This document shows, piece after piece, positions 11,996-46,566 of a stretch of DNA of 64,000 nucleotides (positions within the stretch are counted from its first letter, which is position 1; each line of letters opens with the position of its first letter). The notes under the pieces were generated by a model that had not been told where the DNA came from, searched no databases, and was given only the letters and a program-made list of their open reading frames with translations. The position numbers were made by a program, and so were the translations under genes. Source of the DNA: Isurus oxyrinchus (taxonomy: Eukaryota); assembly GCA_026770705.1 (NCBI GenBank), contig JANJGN010000065.1:1922001-1986000 (forward strand), in the 5' to 3' direction.

Positions 11996-12308
11996 TCTCA
12001 ACTCCAGTCGGCGTCAAATGAAGTGAATCCTGGAAACCCCGTTAAATCAAATGTTGCCAAAGACACTATCTGTTGAAATGGCCAGAATATTTTCCCAGGA
12101 GCATTTTCCGCCCCTTGTCCTGCCGGAGATTAATCTGGAGGTGAATGGATTCGAGTTTGGCTGGGAGATGGGTTGTGATTTCATTAACTCATAGCACCTT
12201 AAAATATACCAAATCACCCTTATGATGTAATCATGCCTTACAACCTCGACTAAAACACGGAGACTTTGCTCTGTCATTTACAATCTATTTTAATTTTCTC
12301 TCTTACAG

Positions 12309-13219
12309 TTAATTTAGTGACGATTTTGATCCTGTCCAGGGGAAAGTGCGGCCTATCCACTTGCACAACAAGGTACCTGGTAGCAATGGCAGCGGCGGAT
12401 TTACTTGTAATTATTACTGATGCCATTTTGTATCAGATACGTGATTATTATTTCCCTGGTTCTTTCCTGGACATCACTCCGTTATGTAGTGTTATCTTTG
12501 CCCTGATTTCTGCAGCCACAGATTGTTCTGTCTGGTTCACCGTCACTTTTTCCTTTGATCGATTTGTCACAATCTGTTGCCAAAAGTTTAGATCTAAATA
12601 TTGCACGGAGAAAACAGCAATTGTGGTTTTATCAACAACTTGTGTTGTGTTCTGTTTAAGAAACGTTCCATTTTGCTTTATATATGAACCAAGAGAGATA
12701 ATCGGCAATGTACCCTGGTACTGCCATGATATGCCAAGCTATTATACAGATCCAGCGTGGGTGGGCTTTGACTGGTTTCATAAAGTTTTAACACCATTGC
12801 TCCCATTCACTTTGATTCTTTTGCTTAATGTTCTGACAGTCAGGCATATTTTAGTGGCCAGTCGAGTCCGTAAGAAATTGAGGGGTCAGAGCAAGGGAAA
12901 AGGCCAAAATGACCCAGAAATGGAAAGCAGAAGGAAGTCGATGATCTTACTATTCACAATATCCGGCAGCTTCATGCTGTTGTGGTTGACAAATGTGGTA
13001 GAATTTTTATATTATAACATTACAGGAACAGATCCATATAGTTACAACGATTCTTTATACATTTTTCGGCAAGTAGGATTTATGCTGCGAGATGTAAGTT
13101 GTTGCACAAACACATTCATTTATGCAGTGACACAATCCAAATTCAGAGAACAGTTCAAAAGGGCGGGAACATATCCTGTTAGGTCAATTATGCAATTAAT
13201 AAATACACCGAGAGAATGA
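12309..13219 (+). CDS. GPR139-like: GPR139-like orphan class A GPCR, coding exon 2 (TM1 second half to C-terminus)
   Basis: Open frame with 7TM hallmarks: YLVAMAAADLL (TM2), SVWFTVTFSFDRFVTICC (TM3/DRF), PLLPFTLILLLN (TM5), SCCTNTFIYAVTQSKFR (TM7/helix 8). A polypyrimidine acceptor, ttttctctcttacag, ends at 12308. With exon 1 the CDS is 978 nt (325 aa). Confidence 0.92.
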
Positions 13220-34874: not shown

Positions 34875-35184
34875 TCAGTTCTTTTGTTCAGAAATTAATT
34901 TCTTAATCGATGTAGTGGATGATTCAGCGCGTTCTGTAACTGCACCCTGAACTAAGCCTGAGTCAACATATAAATATTTTTTTGTGCAGCAAACTTAAGT
35001 TCCACAGCATTTACGCAACATTATCATAGGTGCAAGAAAATTCATCATCTCAAGCATTTAGGACATCAAGATATCTAAAATATACACCAAAGATCGAAAC
35101 TGTGATTCTCTCGCACAGTCTGTCCCCTCAGTCTCTGGTGAACTCGGCTGGCCAATAAAATGTCTCTCGCTGTCAGAGATTTAA
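34875..35184 (-). pseudogene. GPR139-like pseudogene, 3' part of exon 2 (ICL3, TM7, C-terminus; TM6 largely deleted)
   Basis: Minus translation SLTARDILLASRVHQRLRGQTVRENHS matches VLTVRHILVASRVRKKLRGQSKG of the intact gene. Frameshifted remnants ...MLWNLS.CCTK.IYMLTQA*FRVQLQNALNHP match MLRDVSCCTNTFIYAVTQSKFREQFKRAGTYP. Confidence 0.85.
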
Positions 35185-35913
35185 TGTCAGGAAGAGGAAG
35201 TAATGATAATATCATTGGAGTTTTTCTAACATTTTTAATCGAGTATTAGTCTGTGTGTGCTAATTGGATGAAAGCCAGCGATGCTGGGTACTTTGGTGTA
35301 CCGTAGGTTTCAGATGTAAACAGGGCTGGCGGATACATTTGCATTTTGCTAAATAGAACATTCAAGAGTGCGGGTGAAATCTTGCATCTAGTTAGGAAGA
35401 CACCAAGTAATCCTTTTATTACTGATGACAATGGAACTATGAACGGATTTCAAAGGGCCTGGTCATACAATGAAAATTTGCATTCAGAAAGAAAGGCTAG
35501 GTTTAGCAGAAGGGTGAACCCATGTGCATCACAGAGACGTGTAAGTTGAAAATTTGTAAGATTAAAACTATTAGTATTGGAACCAAACAGTAGGGAACTA
35601 CATTTCGAATTCGTCTGGTGAAAATGCTCCGCCTAGTGTCTGCTTAAGTCTATTGGTTATTGTTTCCTTGGGAATTTGTTTAAAATTGAAAATAGAAATG
35701 TGTAGACATGTGTATGTGTTTAATACCTTTTTTGCAAAACAATACAAGTTTAATTTAGTTTGATATAGAGACGTCTGGGGGTTTGGCGGGTTCATTTATG
35801 AATTCAGAGTTCCATATCAAATATTCCAATTGAAAACATCGGTTATGACGGTTGTTGGAAGTTGTCCCCTCGGATTTTAAATAATAGTCTTTTAAAACTG
35901 CTATGGCATAACA
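35185..35913 (+). repeat. 5' LTR of the Gmr1-like element
   Basis: TG...CA termini; collinear with 45295-46046. Confidence 0.85.
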
Positions 35914-35919
35914 ATTTTG

Positions 35920-36240
35920 AACTGTTGAGGTATACAGCAATTTTGTCTGATATAATGTGGTCAACCTAGTGGGTGGAAGCTTTTCCGACCAGATCAAACA
36001 CATCCAAAATTATTGCGAAATTTATTTTAGAGAAAGTGTTTACACGTTATTTTAGTAAAATGGGTACAACAACTAGCAGAAACTGTACAAGAAGCAAATT
36101 ATGTAACTGCTCACCGACAGGGAAAGAAGAAACAGCAAAGCAAGGCTTATTTCGATGCAAAAGCTAGCCTGATAGAGTTGAGCCCCGGACAACGAGTAAT
36201 GATTAGTATGCATCAACCAACCTCATTCTTGAGTCCAAAT
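35920..36240 (+). pseudogene. Inverted integrase fragments of the retrovirus-like element
   Basis: Plus strand reads WVEAFPTRSNTSKIIAKFILEKVFTR (similar to the minus-strand core at about 36575-36640). It is fused to ILVKWVQQLAETVQEANYVTAHRQGKKKQQSKAYFDAKASLIELSPGQRVMISMHQPTSFLSPN (36049-36240), an integrase C-terminal region. Confidence 0.75.
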
Positions 36241-39200
36241 CCAGATCTACCAACCCCTCCAATCCCCTCATGTCCCTACCTGTCATAAGCCTATAAGGAG
36301 TGTATCCTGTTGAAGCCATGGTATTCCTGATTATTATCAGCACATAGGGCAGAACAAACTGCCGGTTTGTCTTGTGCTGCTGCACCATTTTGGCTATCAT
36401 GTTTTTCAATGTCCGATTCAGAATTTCCACAATTCCACTAGACTGTGGTCTATAGGGTATGTGGAATCTCTGCCTGATCCCAAAAAAATTCATAACATCG
36501 TGCATTACTTGGGCTGTAAAACATGTTCCCTGATGCAATTCTCTGCCTCCAGGTAAACCCCAGCATGTAAACACCTTCCCTAAAAAAAAAAAAATTGCAC
36601 TAATTTTGGCTGTGTTTGTTCTGTTCGGAAAAGCTTCCACCTGTTTAGTGAAGGTATCAAATAATACTAGAATATCCTTGTAGTCCTCTGTTGTGGGGGA
36701 AGGGATCCTACATAGTCTATCTGTAACTTAGTCCAAGGCCCTTCTACTGGTCTATTATGTTGGAGGCCCCTTTCCTAAAATTTCTATCGGGGTTGTGTTG
36801 TGCACCGATCAACAATTCTTGACATAGTGGTGCACACCACCTTTCATTCCTGGCCACCAGCATACCTCCTTTATCGAATACAGGGTGCTCTCCATTCCTT
36901 TATGTCCCGATACGTCATGGTACTGGTGGATAATTTGCTTTCGCCCCTCCTCTGGTGCCCCAAATTTCCACTCACGTAAAACCACTCAATTTTGAATATA
37001 GACCCCCTCGTGCCTTTTAAATATGTCTGACTGTGCTCCTTCTATAATTTTTTTCAATTCTCCGTCTTTCTTTTGCTCATCCATTAAATCCACTACTTTA
37101 ACCTGCTTCTCTTTCTGGCCCCCGATTTCCAAAATCTGTGGCTACCATTCCTGTCCACTTACAGCACCTCGTTTGGCTAGGTCATCAGCTTTCCTGTTCC
37201 CATCGGGAGATAATTTTGAATGAGCTTTAACTTTTTTGACCACAAATTCTTTCCCTTGTGCTTCTTGAAAGATGTATTTTAATAGCGGGGAGGAAGGAAG
37301 AGGCCTTCCATCTGCAGAGACAAAATCTTTTGCATCCAATAGGGGCAAATGTTCTGTGAGGCTATTACAGACAGACATGTCATCAAAATATATGACTGAT
37401 CTAGGCGGAAATATTCCGGGTGTCAAACCACATATGCAATGGCTGCTAGTTCTGCTCCCTGCACACTCATGGTTTTATGGATATTTCAAAGCCGCACTAA
37501 ATCTTTCCTGTCCGTTTTCATACTCTATGGATATCCCACAGAAAGTTCTCCTTTCCCCATGCTGTACTGATGAAGAGCCATCCACCAGGATTTAAAATAG
37601 GGTTTTCCTTTCCTGATTGCTTTGTTTTTCTACTTTCAGGCCCAGTCCTACTCCCTCCCTTTTCTTCTGATACAAATGGGCCCTTGGAGTCATTTGCGTT
37701 CATCATTTGACATTCCTATTTTTCTCCATGATAAAGTAAGTTATCTCTTAACATGATAATGTTTTATCCCCCTTTATGGTTATATTTCTCCCGTGCAACA
37801 TTATCCATCCAGGGATTCTATTTGTCTGACTGTACCATTCTTAATCGTTCCGTAATTCAGTAGCTGTACAGGAATGTGTTCTGTAAATGTTGTAATTGTT
37901 TTATTCCCACTATAAAGGTAAAATGCTGCACTGCCCAAAATTCAGTTAGCAAGTGTTTTGCGCATATCGTATACCCCTGCTGTACTGGTGAGAGCATATG
38001 TGAGGCATACGCTATGGGTCGTACGTTTCCATGTGTCTCCTGTAATAGAATTGCTGAAAGGGTGGTGTCTGTGATAGCCACCCCAAATGAAAATGGCTCA
38101 GTTGGATTTGGGGTTTTCAGAGCTGACACAGCAGCTAATGCTTGCTTTAGAGAGTTCATGGCCTGGGTTTGTAATGTTTTCCACTCACAAGTCAAATTCT
38201 TTTTTAATAATTCCATTAGCGGTGCTGCTTTTTTGGTGAATCCATCTATGTGGTCCCTACAATTTCACACCAAATCTAAGAAGGACGTTAACCCTTTTAC
38301 GTCTTGTAACATTGAGTCTGCCAACTGTGTTCATCCTACGCTTGTCAATGTCCCTCTTCCCCAGTGTCACAATCATTGCCAAGTGAGTAACTTATTGTTT
38401 CATGATCTGCGCTTGTTTAGGGTTGATCTTTAATCCCAAGTCATTTAACTGCAGTAATTCACTTAGTCGTTGATTATGTTGCTTTTTGGTTTCAATTTGT
38501 AGGGGTACGTCTCTACATACTGCACTAGAAATTCAGGCCTCGAGAATCCTTTTAACCCTTCCCTTACACGTTGGTGAAATATGGACAGGGAATTCTGAAA
38601 TCCCTGTGGCAGGGTGGTCCATGTATATTGCTTTCCATGGAAAGTAAAAACGAATTTATATTGACATACTTTCTCCCGTGGACTAGACCAAAAACCGTTA
38701 CTTATGCCAAAACTGTGAACCATTGCCATTCTCATTTTGTCGAACTACTGTCTCTGGGCTAGTTGCTACAGTAGGGGTGTTAAAGGGGTCACTTCCCTTA
38801 ATTCTCTGTAGTCTATCGTTAGTCGTCAGCTGCTGTTGGTTTTTCTCACCGGCCATATATGTGCATTGTTAGTAGAAGCTATTGGTCTTAATATCCCTTG
38901 CTGCAGCAGATTCTGTATCACCTTTCCTATCCCTTATTCTGCTTCTTTTGGTAAACCGTACTGCTTTTGTGGTTTGGAGTCTGGACCTTGTATGCACACA
39001 CGTCTGGTCATTTTCCCACAATCATGCTTTAGTCGGACGATTAATATTGAGTTTTGTGCAATAATTTGTTTTACATGAGGATCGTCACTCATTTCTCCTG
39101 GTTCTATCCACGTTTCCCCGATCGTGCATATCCTATCCTGATATTTTCCTACCCAGTGAGTGTGTGATTTATACTGCCTTTGTCCAAAGGCATTTGTTAA

Positions 39201-39560
39201 ATCATACAGTTAACTAGGTCAAAGCAGAATCCTGCTTTGACCATACAGTCGCTCCCTGAAAGATGTTCTAGTTCTCTGGGTAATTTGATAAGAGCCACTG
39301 AATGTTCTATCAATATGTCTCCCACACCGACATCCAACTCACATATCCTACTTGTGAATGTCCTGTGAACCGGCTTAGAAAAATGTTGTTTTTAATTTTC
39401 CAATCTATGTCATTGATCTGACTGGTGCTGAAGGAGGTGTGGGATCCCCCTGTGTCCCAAAGTAGTTTAATAGGCCGGCGTCCAACCCTACCATTCACTA
39501 GGGGTCTTCCCGTGTCATCCCACTGCATATCACACACCCATTATGGAGAGTCCTGAGACC
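36240..39560 (-). pseudogene. pol: pro-pol of the retrovirus-like element (PR-RT-tether-RNase H-IN)
   Basis: IKLLWDTGGSHTSF; ISNGFWS...KFVFTFHGKQYTWTTLPQGFQNSLSIFHQ...LVQYV(E/D); LKQALAAVSALKTPNPTEPF...RPIAYASH; LVDGSSSV...VKKVKAHSKLSPDGNRKADDLAKRGA; HDVSGHKG...WWPGM; YRPQSSGIVEILNRTLK. Confidence 0.85.
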
Positions 39561-39561
39561 G

Positions 39562-41350
39562 TCATTGCAGTTCGGGGTACAACTCAGAACTCGCTGGTAT
39601 TTCTATCATATCACACTGCGGACTTGCTCTATTCGGTCCATCCACGGGTAGGCTCCAGTTTCCTCCCTGACCTGAATTTTCTCGTCTCCAGTTTGGGCAG
39701 TCGCTTGAGAAGTTTCCCTCTCGGCCACAGTTATACCATCTGGACACCTAGCCCTGATTTCTCCCCGTCCCCGAGAAGTTTCCTTTTCCTCTGCCTCTAC
39801 CCAATGTCTGATAGGCTGGAGCGGGGTCCCTCTGAGGAGGTCCCCTCCCTTCATTTCTCCAGGTTGTCAGCTGATTCTTAACAAGCATTGCTCTGTCCCT
39901 GGATGTCTTGAGTAGTTTTGGTGTTTCCCTTTCCCATACTCCAACTATCTTTTTAATTATCCAGTGCTCTCTATGTGCGTCATATGTGGAATCAAACTGA
40001 TCCAATGCTTTCCTCGACTCCTCAGTGCCTTGCAACACGAGCATACTCTGCCATCAGTTCCTAAGCTCCAGCTGTAAATTATCCTTATCTAGCCCAGTGG
40101 CATTGACCAATTAAAATACCACCCAAATGCGAGCCAAACTGTGGTGGTGTATTCACCTTTTCTTTGATAGCATTTCATCAGCGCCTACACTGGGACCCCT
40201 CTGTTATCGTCCATGACAGGTAAAACCTGCTTCTTTGAGGCCTCATTTGTGCCTCTACCAAGTTTTTGCTCCTCCGGTAGGGCAGAGTATATATGTGGGT
40301 GTAGGCACATTAGAAGTAATTTTTCCTCATCATCGTCTAAGCCGTGTACCCCTCCCTGTTGCCTGACTGCGAGGAACCACTCGCTCGGATCATCCCTGGG
40401 TGCACACGTCCCTATATCTTTTGCAATATCCCTCAGTGCTTTTATCCCAAGTGGGCTGGAATATGTCATATTGGGCCCGGCTTGACCCTGGCCATCAGCC
40501 CTACCTTTGCTCTAGTGGTTACAAGGTGGGCCATTGGGGCAGACAGTTTTTCCGGATCTGGTTTATATGCCGGTGGTGGATCCTCTGGTGGAGTTTTCTC
40601 GTCACCCCCGTTGTATCTATCCGCCCCGCCTGCTAAATCATCCCAATCTATATCCCCTTGACATTTTTCTTCACTTCTTCCGGGTGTAAAAGCACACTGT
40701 ATGCCCCTCTGTGCAGGTGGCTGATCTTGCAGCCTCACTATTAGTTTCTGACACTTTGTGTGATCACAGGTAGTGCTCCTCTTTTCCTGAGCTGCTCTGT
40801 GAATCACATTCATAGCACTTTTAAAATCACTACGTTGTTGTTTCCAACCCTCCTCCTCAGCATTAGCTGTTTGGGCTTCTCCCTCTCTCTTACTCTTTTT
40901 TATCAGCCAATTTTTCGAACTGTAACTGATATCGGTTCATGTGCAACAGATCCACACTTCTCTGCTGTTTTAAATCAGTAACCTTCTCACTAAGGCACTT
41001 CTCACTAAACTCCTCATGGAGTTTCTTATTTTCTTCCTCTAGTTCGTCTTCCTCTCTCCTAGCCTGCTTTTAGAATTCTATCCATTCCTGAAATAAACAT
41101 CCAATCGCTACGGACTTCGGTACCTGTTTTAAATTTCTTATCTGACATCTTTGTTTGTGCAATTCTCCAAAGGGCCTCTATAGCGGGATTTCCCTTGTGA
41201 CCAATGTGACTTACATTTTCCGTGTAATGCGGCCACTCCCCTATTACGTATTTATGAAGAATTCCCTTCCAGTCAAAACAGATATTCCCTTTGATTCGTC
41301 ATCTTATGTTAACAGCTATGAATTAACCCAAACTCCTGTTATGCCTATAC
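39562..41350 (-). pseudogene. gag: gag of the retrovirus-like element
   Basis: Fragments include a coiled-coil region, CDHTKCQKLIVRLQ, PPEDPPPAYK (PPxY at 40565-40579), capsid-like LRDIAKDIGTCAPRDDPSEWFLAVRQQGGVHGLDDDEEKLLLMCL, and a degenerate zinc knuckle WYNCGREGNFSSDC. Ends with TGA at 39562-39564. Confidence 0.75.
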
Positions 41351-41396
41351 TTTGCCAAATTGGTTCGCCTGAGTCTCCCGGTAACTGAACTCAGAG

Positions 41397-41414
41397 ACTT
41401 ACACAGGGACACCA
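41397..41414 (-). promoter_or_regulatory. Primer-binding site, tRNA-Asn-like
   Basis: Minus strand TGGTGTCCCTGTGTAAGT, 4 nt after the LTR end. It resembles the complement of the vertebrate tRNA-Asn 3' end (TGGCGTCCCTGGGTGGGC). Confidence 0.55.
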
Positions 41415-41418
41415 AACA

Positions 41419-42205
41419 TGTTGCAGGAGGTCACCGGTAATGGTTAATGGCTTAGTACACAGAGGAGTAGCGCAAATTCTCTCTTAACTTTAAACGCGCT
41501 TATTCACGTCTTTAGATCATCTACACACAATTCATACATCTGTTTAACTATAGGCATACAGTTTACAGCAGGTTATACAGTTTTATACCAGAACTAGGAT
41601 CTAAACACTCATACACTAGGTTTCTCTGACACTCCCTGAGTGGTCACAGAATATAAAAGTTAGTATCCGAAAAGGAGAGCTGATGCTGGCCAGGCATTCC
41701 CTTCTCTCTCCGGTGCGTCTCTACATTGCGGATGTAGTTTCCCTCGCTTCTGCGATGGTTGGTCTCCAGAGTCTCGCTGCCCGATGCCCGAAGTCCTCTC
41801 AGTGTTACACTGAATTGTATATCTTCAAGTTGTTCTGTCTCTCTTCCCGTTGGTTTTGGTCTGCTTTTCTGATCATTGGCATCTTCCCTATTGGCTGTTC
41901 CAAGACTTGAAGGATCATCTCGTTTCTCTGTTTCTAAATATGGACGCATCACGTTTCCATTGTCTTGAAGAAACTCAGCTTCTTTGACAGCGGTTCTAAC
42001 CAGTTCGGACCCAGTGACTGGAGTCAGGTTTGAAAAGTTACTCAGGCCAGCAACTGGACTCAAGTTACTTCAGTTCAAAAGTTGCTTTTGCCTGTGTCTG
42101 GCAGTTCAGCTGCAGCCAGTGGCCAACATGTGCAACGATAGAGCTGGATCGCAAATGCGGTTGATGCTTATAGAAGTTGAGCAACCTGTATAATTATTTC
42201 CAACA
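41419..42205 (-). repeat. 5' LTR of the retrovirus-like element
   Basis: Terminal inverted TGTTG...CAACA, adjacent PBS, and a TATA-like GGTATAAAA on minus at about 41581-41589. Confidence 0.7.
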
Positions 42206-42209
42206 GAGC

Positions 42210-45100
42210 TGTTACAGTAGGAACATCCTGTATTCTTTCCCGATTGTGTTGTAACGCGGTCAAAATCTTACTGGGAAGAGCGAGTCGCACACAAAGGGCA
42301 TGCAGTTCAAAAGCTAAAAGATGTCCAAATCGAATTAGTTGACACTGTATTTGATATCATTTTTCTGGTGGAAAGAAGGCAGGACCGTTCAACAGAAGTG
42401 TTTAACTCAACGAAGTTAGTGAAGTTACAGAATAAGGGATTTACAAATAAAGGAGTTATATCAGAAAGCCTATGCAGAAAGAGACGCAAACTGTACTCCA
42501 ATATGTTATTATCTTTAGGGAGATATCTAAATGTAAAAGCAGAAGTCGGATCATTTCTTAGCAAATGAAGACTGCATTGAAGTTCATCAGGTTATCATCC
42601 CAGTTGGGTAAAAGAAAACGAAATTCTGAGGAATGTCACCAAATTCGAATGTGTGGAAATTTTGGAACTAGGAAAACACAGGGAACGAACCATTGCCTTT
42701 ACATTTTTGCCCAGTTTACATAGGGATGTATTAAAATTCTGTAGAACCTGTCATAAATGTCAAGCAGTGATTAATGCCGTGCGTTTAATCCCTATACCAC
42801 CGTTTGAATAACCTTTTACATGGGCTACAATTGATTGTGTAGGACCCTGTTCTAAGTTCAAAAGTGGAAATCAGTATTTTCTGACAATAATCAATGTACC
42901 TACCAGATTTCCTGAAACGATTGTGAAATATTTCAACTCAGAGGATTGTGGAGGACTATTTATTTTTGCATGTTATGGTGTAGGGTGTAGGTAAAAAAAA
43001 GCGTTCAGATAAGTCTTCAAATTTCATTTCGCAGCTTTTTCGAGAAAAAAATGAACAATTTGGGGATTCAACAGTTTAAGTCAACAGTTTATCTTCCGGG
43101 ATCACGGGGAACTTTTGAGAGATGGCTTCAAACTCTAAAGACAATGAGAACGGCATATTGTGAGAATTATCCACAGGATTGGAATGCAGGAATTCCATTC
43201 CTTTTATTTGCTATTAGAGACGCTCCAAATGCATCGACCGGTTTCAGCCCTTTTTAACTAATGTATGCCTCTGAGGTAAGGGGCAACTGAAGCTGATTCA
43301 TGAAAAATTGATGGGTGAAGTACAAAAGATATTTTTCTGGATTACATAAGATTTCAGGGAAAGATTGAACAGAGCATGTGAGTTGGCGAGGAAACATTTG
43401 AACATATCACAGCAATTGACGAAAGTGAAGGCCAATAAGCAGGCTAAACCACGCAGTTTTTCTTCTGGAGAGAAAGTGCTGGTTCAGTTACAACTGCGAA
43501 CTGATTCATTAAATGGACGATTTACTGGGCCTTACAGGATCGGAAACAAATTGATTGAAGGAAATTATTTAATACATACTCCAGATATAACCAAAAAGCA
43601 GAGGGTCGGACACGAAAATATGCTTCAAACGTGCTTTCATGGGGAAGAGGAACAAAAAGAGCTATTTTTGAGGTGACTGAAGAAGAACAATTAGAACTGC
43701 AGGTCTCTGCAATTAAATTTCCTCTAATCGAATTGGAAAATGAGGGTTTGCTTGAAAGTTTTAATGAACTATTTAGTTACGTTCCAAACAAGTGTCAAAG
43801 TGGTTTCGAAATTATTTTGCAGTAACAGATGTGTATTTGTGGAAACAAGTTGGGAAACATGCATTTTGCTATATTTAATGCCTCAGTGCAAGTTCTTTCT
43901 TCAATCAGGCAACATCCTTATAGATTAAACCCGGCAAAGTTATCCCAAATACAAAAAAATATCTTACTTTTGTCCTTCAAAGCTATATATGTGAGTCTAA
44001 TTGCACAAAATGGAGTGCACCTAATCCATTGGTACAGAACCCACTTGGAGAACTATGACTCTCTCTGGACTATGGAGAGATGAATGTGATGACAAAAACG
44101 GATTCATGTCCTACACGACGGTTGGAAGATTGTATTAAGAAAGTAGGGCAATCGAAATTTATCACCCAGCTTGGCTTGCTAAAGGAAAGTGGCAGCAACC
44201 TTTGTCAGAGAGAGCAGTAGGGATATGAGCCTTTGTAACACCAAGTGAACTACACCAGTTTAAAGTCATGCCATTTGTTATGAAGTATACACACGTGACA
44301 TTTTAAAGAATGACAAACAAATTAATTGCGGGTCTAAGCAATTGTGTTGCTTTTATTGATGATCTAAACGCTTGTACTTAGAACATTTACCCCCTCTGGA
44401 AAACATATTTACTCGAATATAAGAAGCTCATTTGGCGTTGAACTCGGCTAAAAGTGATTTTGCAAAAGTGCAGGTTAAGCATCCAGGACAAATCATTGGA
44501 AATTTTAAGGTTGCTCTCAGGTAATGTGAACGTCAAGGATATCGTGGATTTCCCAGTACCTCCGACAAAACAAGAATTTATGATATCTCTGGGCATGAGT
44601 GGGTTTTACGGTAAATTTATGCCAAATTTTAGCCGATTGGTTGCTCCACTGGCTGAATTATCATAAATGAACAGGAAGTTTCAATGGACATTGGTGTGTC
44701 AGAAGTCATTGAGTAGTTCGAAAGCTACGTGTTAACTATGACACCAATTTTGGAAGTACCCAATTATGCCACTTTATGTTCGCCATTGCTGCAAGCGATA
44801 TAGGCACTATGGATGTACGGTTACAATTTTATAACATTGGAATTGTAAAATCGATAGGATATTTTTTCACAGAAGCTGGACGTGCAACATAGCCGATAGT
44901 CAACGATAGAAATTGAGTTCAATAATGCTGGCAACGCAGCATTTTGAAATTTATGTTGCAAGCAATTCATTGGAAACAATTATTTATCTGGACCACAATC
45001 CCATGAAGATTTGGACAAATTTTGTGATAAAAGTGCAAGACCTTGTACGAAGAGATTATTATTACAACCATTTATTCTACGGATTATACATGTGGAGGAC
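42210..45100 (+). pseudogene. pol: pol of the Gmr1-like element (integrase, then RT, then RNase H)
   Basis: IN: DVLKFCRTCHKCQ, IDCVGP...GNQYFLTII, GTFERWLQTLKTM...GIPFLLFAIR...TGFSPF, RFTGPYRI. RT: IRQHPYRLNP, AFVTP..HQFKVMPF, AFIDDL. RNase H: FPVPPTKQEFMISLGMSGFYGKFMPNFSRLVAPL, IYLDHNPM. Confidence 0.88.
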
Positions 45101-45294
45101 CTGCGTTTTAATCTTAAAGGAAAACTGTGGATTTTCAAAAACATGGTCATTGCAATGGAACGATGCCTTATTTTAATGCATGCGTCTGGTAATTTAATAG
45201 GCTAATAAGTATGGGACATAGTGTGAGATGGTTTATAAAAAAATGGAAACTTCCTTTAGGATGCTGACTGTTCATTTTTCGATAGGAATGGGGA

Positions 45295-46046
45295 TGTCAG
45301 GAAGTGATATTCATGCAGATAAAAATATTGAAAATTTTCTTTGTTAGTAGATGTTTGGCCTATGCGAATTTTAACTGGATTAAAAACAGCTCGTCTAGGT
45401 ACTTTTATGTATAGTAATTTTGCGCCGTAATTAGAGGTAGAGTGTTCATTTAGATTTTGTTGAATGGAGCATTCAGGAATGGGTGTGTATTCTTGCATGC
45501 AGCTAGGAGATGCCAAGCAATGCTTATGTTATTAATAAAGCTAATACAATGATAGGGGATCAAAGGACCTGGTGAATCAATGCAAATTTACATTCAAAAG
45601 GAAAGGATCGTTATTAGAGAAGGGTATCTGTGTGCTTTGCAGAGACATGTAAGATGAAAGCCTGTAAGCCTACAGAAATAATAAGCATTGCAAAAGAGCC
45701 AAATTGAAAGGATCGTCATTTTGATACAATAAGGTGAAAATGCTTTACCTGGTGTCTGGTTAAGTCTATTGGTTACAGGTGCCTTAGTGGAGATTAATTT
45801 GGGAATTTGTTAAGAAGTTGTGATAGTTGTAATTTGTAGACATATATATGTATTTCATAATCTGTTGTAAAGAAATAAATATATAACTAAGTTTGATATC
45901 CACACCTCTTGGGGCTTCGTGGGTTCATTTCCGAATTCAGAGATGCATATTCAACATACCAATTGAATGTATAGGTTATGGTAGTTGTATACATTTTACC
46001 TCTGGGGTTTCAAATAAAAGTATTAACCAACTGCTGCGTTATAACA
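45295..46046 (+). repeat. 3' LTR of the Gmr1-like element
   Basis: Preceded by a PPT; TGTCAGGAAG...ATAACA; collinear with the 5' LTR. Confidence 0.85.
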
Positions 46047-46566
46047 GTTGAACAATGGAATTAACCCGATTGGAAGCAATAGGCTTTTTTTTCGAAGATC
46101 ATAAAACCAACGGATCATGCATCATTAAAGTAGCTTGGATTTTTAGAACAACGGCAAATTGAGCTGCCAATAACAATAATAGTTAAACCTAACCTAGGTT
46201 GGAAAGGTTATTTTAAGCAGGACGGAATGCTATCTGCTTCTAGACCGACAGCCGCAGTTTATCTGTTCCAATATTGAGATTTCAACTTCTGGCAACATAT
46301 GACGTCGAATCGATCAAAATTGAAAGCGACAGGTAACCAAGCAGCACAGTCTGTGGCTGCAAGAAACAAGATGTAGCGCACACTGCACACGCGTAATTTT
46401 CAGGAAATTGAGCGGGACACAATAATCATTGATTCGGTTTAGCATAACCCCTGAAATAATGATGAGGGCTTCTGTTGGTGCCATGACCACAGCGTAGCAA
46501 GTATCGCTGGTGGAGAGGCGACACTTTCCATAGGACAAGATCACAATTGACGGAGATGGGCGGTTA
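46047..46566 (-). pseudogene. GPR139-like pseudogene, 5' part of exon 2 (TM1-TM5)
   Basis: Minus ORF VILSYGKCRLSTSDTCYAVVMAPTEALIIISGVMLNRINDYCVPLNFLKIT. After frameshifts: AATDCAAWLPVAFNFDRFDVICCQKLKSQY, PSYFNDA*SVGF, LPIGLIPLFN. Acceptor ttcttcag ends at 46567. Confidence 0.88.

What the first reader, a model, noticed from the sequence alone, without database searches (positions are those of the whole stretch)
36240..42205. Retrovirus-like provirus with dual RNase H, PPxY late domain and single CCHC knuckle: candidate lokiretrovirus/spuma-related lineage in a cartilaginous fish
Seen: LTR, tRNA-Asn-like PBS, Gag with PPPAY and a degenerate CCHC, LWDTGG protease, RT with ISNGFWS / WTTLPQGF.NS / QYV(DD), a degenerate RNase H-like tether followed by a second RNase H (VDGSS...KAHS...GNRKADDLAK), then integrase. 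Established: tether plus RNase H duplication marks retroviruses and close relatives such as lokiretroviruses, not ordinary Gypsy elements. PPxY is a budding late-domain motif, and foamy-virus Gag lacks CCHC. Inference: this may represent a poorly described deep retroviral lineage.
Basis: partly seen in the sequence, partly recalled or inferred. Interest (0 to 1): 0.7.

Follow-up and report, generated by a model that had tools for sequence, protein, structure and literature searches.

The report
Dead shark retrovirus, F-type envelope family
This is a broken, truncated copy of a multi-copy endogenous retrovirus in a likely shark genome; its polymerase groups with ordinary retroviruses near the snakehead-fish retrovirus rather than with lokiretroviruses, and sister copies carry an envelope predicted to fold like the fusion protein of measles-type viruses.

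Summary
The anatomy is real: LTR, tRNA-Asn PBS, Gag with PPPAY and one zinc knuckle, protease, RT, degenerate tether, second RNase H, integrase. Corrections: the LTR is 41419-42128 (42129 onward is a host Gypsy element), and the copy ends in a fold-back inversion, without env or 3' LTR. It belongs to a family of dozens of dead copies, two of them seen with both LTRs (LTR divergence 4-7%). It is not a lokiretrovirus: RT falls on the retrovirus side of the tree (100/97) and family+Loki is rejected (p-AU 1e-5). It sits in an unnamed shark-frog-coelacanth clade of the class III/'Huo' grade; snakehead retrovirus (SnRV) is the closest named virus by sequence, though not its sister in the tree (p-AU 0.026). 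Such ERVs are known from elephant shark. Sister copies carry an env whose model matches paramyxovirus/pneumovirus F (Foldseek 1e-9; Z 11.3) and which is homologous to SnRV Env (hhalign E 1e-5). So the F-type envelope is not a lokiretrovirus hallmark; I found no paper saying so in six searches. This scan reached the same reading seven times before on other DNA. Foamy and true ERV-L references were missing from my tree.

The parts
41419..42128 (-). 5' LTR (TG...CA, about 710 bp)
   Evidence: matches both LTRs of two-LTR sister proviruses at 83-84%
41397..41414 (-). primer-binding site for tRNA-Asn(GTT), worn in this copy
39562..41300 (-). gag, broken; N-terminal coiled-coil-like stretch; ends in TGA in frame with pro-pol (start approximate)
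40565..40579 (-). PPPAY (PPxY late-domain motif)
   Evidence: PPxY kept in 11 of 19 copies that cover it
39697..39738 (-). single zinc knuckle, degenerate here
   Evidence: zf-CCHC 0.008 here, 1.4e-8 in a sister copy; intact C-C-H-C in 11 of 16 independent copies
39200..39540 (-). aspartyl protease (LWDTGG), broken
38190..38975 (-). reverse transcriptase, several stops and frame changes
37860..38185 (-). tether (degenerate Gypsy-type RNase H)
   Evidence: RT_RNaseH_2 1.6e-19; catalytic positions substituted
37150..37595 (-). second, retroviral RNase H
36240..37090 (-). integrase zinc-binding and core domains
36043..36239 (+). the element's own integrase C-terminal region, inverted
   Evidence: 87-90% to the collinear stretch of sister copies
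35970..36043 (+). inverted duplicate of the start of the integrase core (fold-back junction)
   Evidence: (I5)
42129..45050 (+). host Gypsy element body (integrase before RT) into which the provirus inserted
35261..35916 (+). one LTR of the host Gypsy element (partner at 45372-46049, 68% identical)

Best explanation
This is a dead, 3'-truncated copy of a multi-copy endogenous retrovirus family of the class III/'Huo' grade, related to snakehead retrovirus and not a lokiretrovirus, whose sister copies carry an envelope predicted to have the paramyxovirus F fold. How the virus likely worked: reverse transcription primed on tRNA-Asn (PBS shown); Gag and Gag-Pro-Pol made from one frame by read-through of a UGA stop (in-frame TGA shown, read-through inferred); budding through the PPxY motif and packaging through one zinc knuckle (motifs shown, roles from established retrovirus biology); entry by a furin-cleaved class Ib fusogen (cleavage site, hydrophobic peptide, heptads and TM anchor shown; fold predicted); integration with a 4-bp duplication (shown at one sister locus). 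History of this copy: it inserted into an older Gypsy element, later lost env, the 3' LTR and the adjoining Gypsy sequence in a deletion with fold-back inversion (likely template switching), and the whole block was then duplicated to at least six places.
For: Two-LTR sisters colinear at 83-84% over 5.9 kb. RT tree of 66 rows: family inside the retrovirus side 100/97, Loki a separate clade 100/99; same with 38 rows; family+Loki rejected. RT scores: MLV 116-118 bits, foamy 93-97, Ty3 63-65; sister RT versus SnRV 47.5%/228 bits, versus 7 Loki-type rows 34-39%/165-176 bits. SnRV reference fetched whole (10,688 nt; length as in PMC12193657; RT equals the SnRV row of PMC7947760's supplement). TGA directly after the Gag end in 17 of 17 copies where the motif was found, of 22 examined; SnRV has the same in-frame layout with TAG. 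Env model pLDDT 72: Foldseek PDB top hits all paramyxo/pneumovirus F, E 1.1e-9; VIA Z 11.3, rmsd 6.8, 322 aligned to hPIV3 F; foamy Env Z 8.1, rmsd 4.9, 260 aligned. Env alignment versus SnRV Env: hhalign probability 81.9, E 1.1e-5, 262 columns; hmmsearch E 1.7e-4 against best of 300 shuffles 0.55. Rearranged junction at 6 places, collinear in the other 34 scored copies.
Against: SnRV is not the sister of this clade: the tree puts SnRV with gamma/epsilon-type rows (97/96, 85/94) and clade+SnRV is mildly rejected (p-AU 0.026); unnamed turtle and ostrich ERVs score slightly higher than SnRV (245 and 240 bits). No foamy virus and no true ERV-L row was in the tree. Gag shows no similarity to SnRV Gag outside the knuckle. 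No Pfam or PDB sequence hit for the env; the full VIA search gave best Z 9.9 with coiled coils close behind. The env is from sister copies, not from the window. The window's RT row ran through frameshifts and has a long branch.
Confidence: 0.85

Rival explanations
1. A lokiretrovirus, the first from a cartilaginous fish.
For: Dual RNase H; F-like env, and by eye the env resembles the Loki-Lch Env printed in PMC7947760's supplement; integrase 47-51% identical to Loki-type rows; the quick RNase H tree leaves the family on the same side as Loki with weak support (91).
Against: RT outside the Loki clade, union rejected at p-AU 1.35e-5 (family) and 0.021 (wider clade); RT motif differs; integrase is closer to non-Loki rows (56-63%).
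Confidence: 0.03
2. A fish foamy-like (spuma, clade Tu) endogenous virus.
For: Foamy Env has the F-like core (PMC11468914; Z 8.1 to the model); DISNGFW resembles the foamy motif; foamy-like ERVs are reported from a catshark (PMC10699275).
Against: Zinc knuckle and gag in frame with pol; RT core 39 of 56 to SnRV against 22 (SFV), 20 (AciFLERV), 24 (ZFERV-2) by hand count; MLV RT scores above foamy RT; standard N-terminal signal-like segment and short env without the large foamy insert.
Confidence: 0.05
3. An independent deep lineage deserving its own name: neither SnRV's clade proper nor ERV-L, with its own or an ancestral F-type env.
For: 21-row shark-frog-coelacanth clade at 95/96; clade+SnRV p-AU 0.026, clade+turtle/ostrich/caecilian rows p 0.38; PBS Asn and UGA differ from SnRV's UAG junction.
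Against: Support falls to 91/86 in the smaller tree; RT alone is 266 columns; published Pol trees already collect such elements in clade Huo or the SnRV clade (PMC6001957, PMC12193657). This is compatible with the best explanation and differs only in rank.
Confidence: 0.35

Closest known systems
Snakehead retrovirus (SnRV; unclassified Orthoretrovirinae)
   Same: RT 47.5% (39 of 56 in the palm core), one zinc knuckle, coiled-coil-rich Gag N-terminus, gag and pol in one frame across a stop, homologous Env
   Different: Not sister in the RT tree (p-AU 0.026); UGA against UAG; no room for a 3' accessory ORF between env and LTR in the C10 sister; Gag unalignable outside the knuckle; env about 700-750 codons against 1134
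CmiERV lineage I of elephant shark (PMC4422223) and clade Huo / class III ERVs (PMC6001957)
   Same: Cartilaginous-fish ERV of the SnRV-related grade, similar length (about 9.5 kb) and LTR divergence (0.033 there; 0.039 and 0.072 here)
Lokiretroviruses (PMC7947760)
   Same: tether plus RNase H; F-like env with basic cleavage site
   Different: RT clade and motifs; none found in 3 chondrichthyan genomes in that study
Foamy viruses (PMC11468914)
   Same: class Ib, F-like fusogen core
   Different: zinc knuckle, in-frame gag-pol, RT sequence, smaller env

Membership tests
Retroviridae | LTR-gag-pro-pol-env-LTR with RT, tether, second RNase H, integrase last | tested here: met
   env and 3' LTR seen in sister copies only
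Retroviridae | RT groups with retroviruses, apart from Ty3/Gypsy | tested here: met
Lokiretrovirus | RT inside the Loki clade, sister to other retroviruses | tested here: not met
   Loki rows labelled by motif match to the paper's supplement and by host name
Lokiretrovirus | Env related to paramyxo/pneumovirus F | tested here: met
   fold match in a sister copy; also true of SnRV Env by homology, so not diagnostic
Lokiretrovirus | RNase H with foamy group I; integrase near CGIN1 | tested here: inconclusive
   quick trees poorly resolved, no foamy or CGIN1 rows
Spumaretrovirinae / foamy-like ERVs | Gag without zinc knuckle; Pol not made as an in-frame Gag-Pol (second part recalled) | tested here: not met
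   absence of knuckle in spumaviruses from PMC2717909
Spumaretrovirinae / foamy-like ERVs | RT in the foamy clade | tested here: inconclusive
   no foamy row in the tree; pairwise scores and hand counts are against it
Class III / clade Huo (SnRV- and ERV-L-related) | Pol outside gamma/epsilon, beta-like and foamy clades, near SnRV | tested here: met
   outside the gamma/epsilon-type clade (100/98) and nearest named relative SnRV; beta-like RTs score far lower
SnRV clade in the strict sense | monophyly with SnRV on RT | tested here: inconclusive
   p-AU 0.026 against but highest named similarity; long SnRV branch, 266 columns
Gamma/epsilon ERVs with gamma-type Env | RT in class I and TM with ISD and CX6CC | tested here: not met
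   RT outside; no retroviral Env Pfam hit in 11 env pieces; model matches F

The most novel reading that the evidence does not exclude
The F-type (class Ib) fusogen is the ancestral envelope of all Retroviridae: it is kept in lokiretroviruses, foamy viruses, SnRV, this unnamed shark-frog-coelacanth clade and, by the BFVD matches, the walleye epsilonretroviruses, so the gamma- and beta-type Envs of textbook retroviruses are later replacements within Orthoretrovirinae.
Probability: 0.4. Interest if true: 0.7.

Novelty: new member of a known kind. Interest (0 to 1): 0.38.

Why it matters
The locus itself is an ordinary dead provirus. The family matters because it puts an F-type envelope on an orthoretrovirus-grade polymerase. 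PMC7947760 lists four scenarios for the origin of retroviral env and cannot choose; PMC11468914 treats orthoretroviral Env as class Ia and only foamy Env as class Ib. F-like envs across the SnRV-related grade favour an F-type env in the common ancestor, and they remove 'F-like env' as a marker of lokiretroviruses when annotating fish and amphibian ERVs. Screens built on gamma- and beta-type Env queries (10.1101/2021.11.23.469661) would miss them.

Tried and rejected
Sequence searches for the env found no family: Pfam (one weak Baculo_F hit, E 0.001, in 1 of 30 homologues), PDB by single sequence and by profile, ESM Atlas (one hit at 0.82, chance level). A single-sequence model of SnRV Env had pLDDT 36 and was not searched, so SnRV Env being F-like rests on homology. 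A search of the own genome with a Loki-type Pol returned only this and related families at 26-41%, but only 25 of 45,387 candidates were scored, so it does not show absence. A foamy protease profile gave one weak match without usable RT, so no foamy row entered the tree. IMG/VR held SnRV only. Integrase and RNase H trees were too weak to use. Three rows first taken as ERV-L-like (P0002, P0041, P0052) do not match the HERV-L/MuERV-L rows closely and are left unnamed. The reading of 35970-36239 as a second, opposite-facing provirus was rejected: the pieces continue this element's own integrase. Rows left out of the RT tree: of the 149 Pol-type hits, 55 were chosen by hand to span the groups; L029 was dropped for length; the AU tests used 38 of the 66 rows.
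Full report
OBSERVATION. The minus strand of 36240-42128 carries, in order, an LTR, a PBS, gag, protease, RT, a tether, a second RNase H and integrase, all broken by stops and frame changes. Pfam on the window's frames finds the tether (RT_RNaseH_2, E 1.6e-19), the second RNase H (E 1.4e-5, at the cut-off), RT, integrase core and a weak zinc knuckle. A sister copy has both RNase H-type domains in one open frame (1.6e-24 and 5.2e-20) and aligns to MLV RT/RNase H across both. In the tether, the acidic residues that four Gypsy RNases H keep at three catalytic positions are substituted, as in SnRV, MLV-like and Loki-type rows. The PBS of independent copies is complementary to host tRNA-Asn(GTT) genes.

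CORRECTIONS. The LTR is 41419-42128: family LTRs match only that part and 42129 onward matches another high-copy repeat. That repeat is a Gypsy element with integrase before RT and LTRs at 35261-35916 and 45372-46049. At the 3' side the provirus ends in a rearrangement: 36043-36239 is its own integrase C-terminus inverted, 35970-36043 an inverted duplicate of the integrase core start, 54 bases from the Gypsy LTR. Env, the 3' LTR and the Gypsy sequence on that side are gone. The same junction is present at five other places, 96.8-97.0% identical to the window with flanks, while the other 34 scored copies are collinear. So the order is: Gypsy insertion, retrovirus insertion, deletion with fold-back, block duplication (order inferred from nesting and shared junctions).

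THE FAMILY. The genome is 4.98 Gb; a shark is inferred from the hosts of the nearest named proteins and from other notes on this genome, not shown directly. About 70 of the 150 listed RT matches are at 70% identity or more (hand count, some are two pieces of one copy); the LTR had 684 first-look candidates, 40 scored. Two sisters have both LTRs, with K2P distances 0.039 and 0.072 and, at one, a 4-bp target duplication. With the two shark rates assumed in PMC4422223 and PMC10699275 (2.2e-10 and 5e-10 per site per year) that is roughly 40-160 million years; the rates are assumptions. In 22 copies examined, the Gag end is followed by TGA in all 17 where the motif was found, and knuckle and protease share a frame in 12, which points to UGA read-through (inferred). 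PPxY is kept in 11 of 19 copies. No family env match has an open frame long enough for a whole env.

PLACE IN THE TREE. References had to come from the tools. P0057 is SnRV Pol: it equals the SnRV row in the supplement of PMC7947760 and maps at 99% to a 10,688-nt contig, the length given in PMC12193657. Seven fish proteins with the CPFGYANSPA-type or NIAIYVDD motif serve as Loki rows; P0097 is MLV-like. In the careful 66-row RT tree the three family rows form a clade (100/97) inside a 21-row clade of shark, frog and coelacanth ERVs (95/96), on the retrovirus side (100/97); Loki is a separate clade (100/99). On 38 rows, family+Loki is rejected at p-AU 1.35e-5 and clade+Loki at 0.021; clade+SnRV at 0.026; clade plus three unnamed turtle, ostrich and caecilian rows is not rejected (0.38). 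Over a 56-residue palm core the sister RT shares 39 residues with SnRV, 25 with HERV-L, 24 with ZFERV-2, 23 with Loki-Lch, 22 with SFV and 20 with AciFLERV (hand count). Foamy and ERV-L rows could not be put in the tree. The element therefore belongs to the class III/'Huo' grade, with SnRV the nearest named virus but perhaps not the sister group.

THE ENVELOPE. Between integrase and the 3' LTR the sisters carry a broken gene with a signal-like start, a basic cleavage site followed by a glycine/alanine-rich hydrophobic peptide, long heptad helices, a cysteine-rich beta region and a TM anchor. Homologues occur in sharks, a ray and frogs as uncharacterised proteins (42 hits; 9 of 10 clusters looked up carry a name). 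A model from a 36-row alignment (pLDDT 72, pTM 0.51) matches paramyxovirus and pneumovirus F: all 36 listed Foldseek PDB rows, best E 1.1e-9; VIA Z 11.3, rmsd 6.8, 322 aligned for hPIV3 F, foamy Env Z 8.1; in the unbiased VIA search NDV F ranks first at Z 9.9 with unrelated coiled coils at 8.6. BFVD adds lispivirus, baculovirus F, walleye epsilonretrovirus Env and feline foamy Env. SnRV Env is homologous to this env.

LITERATURE. PMC7947760 (main text parts 1-3 of 4; supplement part 1 and searched passages; the file is cut when stored) defines Loki by RT and found none in 3 chondrichthyan genomes. PMC4422223 (part 1 of 2) reports elephant-shark CmiERV lineage I clustering with SnRV. PMC6001957, PMC8922424, PMC12193657, PMC12287698 and PMC2717909 (passages) describe clade Huo or the SnRV clade, and SnRV's single knuckle. 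PMC11468914 (passages) shows foamy Env is F-like and classes orthoretroviral Env apart. PMC12583693 (passages, section 9), 10.1101/2023.10.26.564294, PMC11521997, 10.1101/2021.11.05.467493, 10.1101/2024.03.17.585361 (passages) and 10.1101/2021.11.23.469661 (parts 1-2 of 6) do not state, in what I read, that SnRV-grade Env is F-like; PMC10699275 (part 2 of 4) reports a foamy-like catshark ERV. Searches found no such statement; subscription papers and bioRxiv supplements were not visible and may hold it. The scan's own notes reach the same reading on seven other loci; I saw them after my tests and they are not independent evidence.

VERDICT. A real but ordinary dead provirus of a known grade of fish and amphibian ERVs, not a lokiretrovirus and not shown to be spuma-related. 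The point worth keeping is family-level: an F-type envelope on an orthoretrovirus-grade polymerase, shared with SnRV. Interest 0.38.

Noticed in passing
G000:C40:8928251-8930431 (L017:752-2932, minus): An open frame of 727 codons homologous to the family env (27-28%) lies downstream of a broken pol of a different lineage (L021); a candidate host-retained env gene.
   Followed up: partly
window 34900-43300 and G000 C53, C55, C65, C119, C166: The nested Gypsy/ERV block with its flanks occurs at six places on small contigs at 96.8-99.1% identity: a segmental duplication or large repeat unit of unknown extent.
   Followed up: partly
window 35261-46049: Host Gypsy element has integrase upstream of RT (Gmr1-like order; label recalled), LTRs 68% identical.
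   Followed up: partly
L022-L028: At least three further ERV families of the same clade in this genome; all seven loci fetched have a match to the same F-like env downstream of pol.
   Followed up: partly
(BFVD): Walleye epidermal hyperplasia virus 1 Env (E 3e-9) and walleye dermal sarcoma virus Env (E 1.3e-7) match the env model among F-type fusogens, suggesting epsilonretrovirus Envs are F-like too.
   Followed up: no
window 12254-13216 (+): Intact single-exon 321-codon rhodopsin-family GPCR frame (7tm_1 E 2e-20).
   Followed up: no
L002:3563-4389 and L015:511-1404: A Penelope-like (label recalled) retroelement fragment is inserted in two sister proviruses.
   Followed up: no
P0188 cluster: A frog (Mantella) has at least 12 listed full-length 677-aa copies of a distant homologue of this env at over 90% identity, pointing to a young expansion of the same env type.
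   Followed up: no
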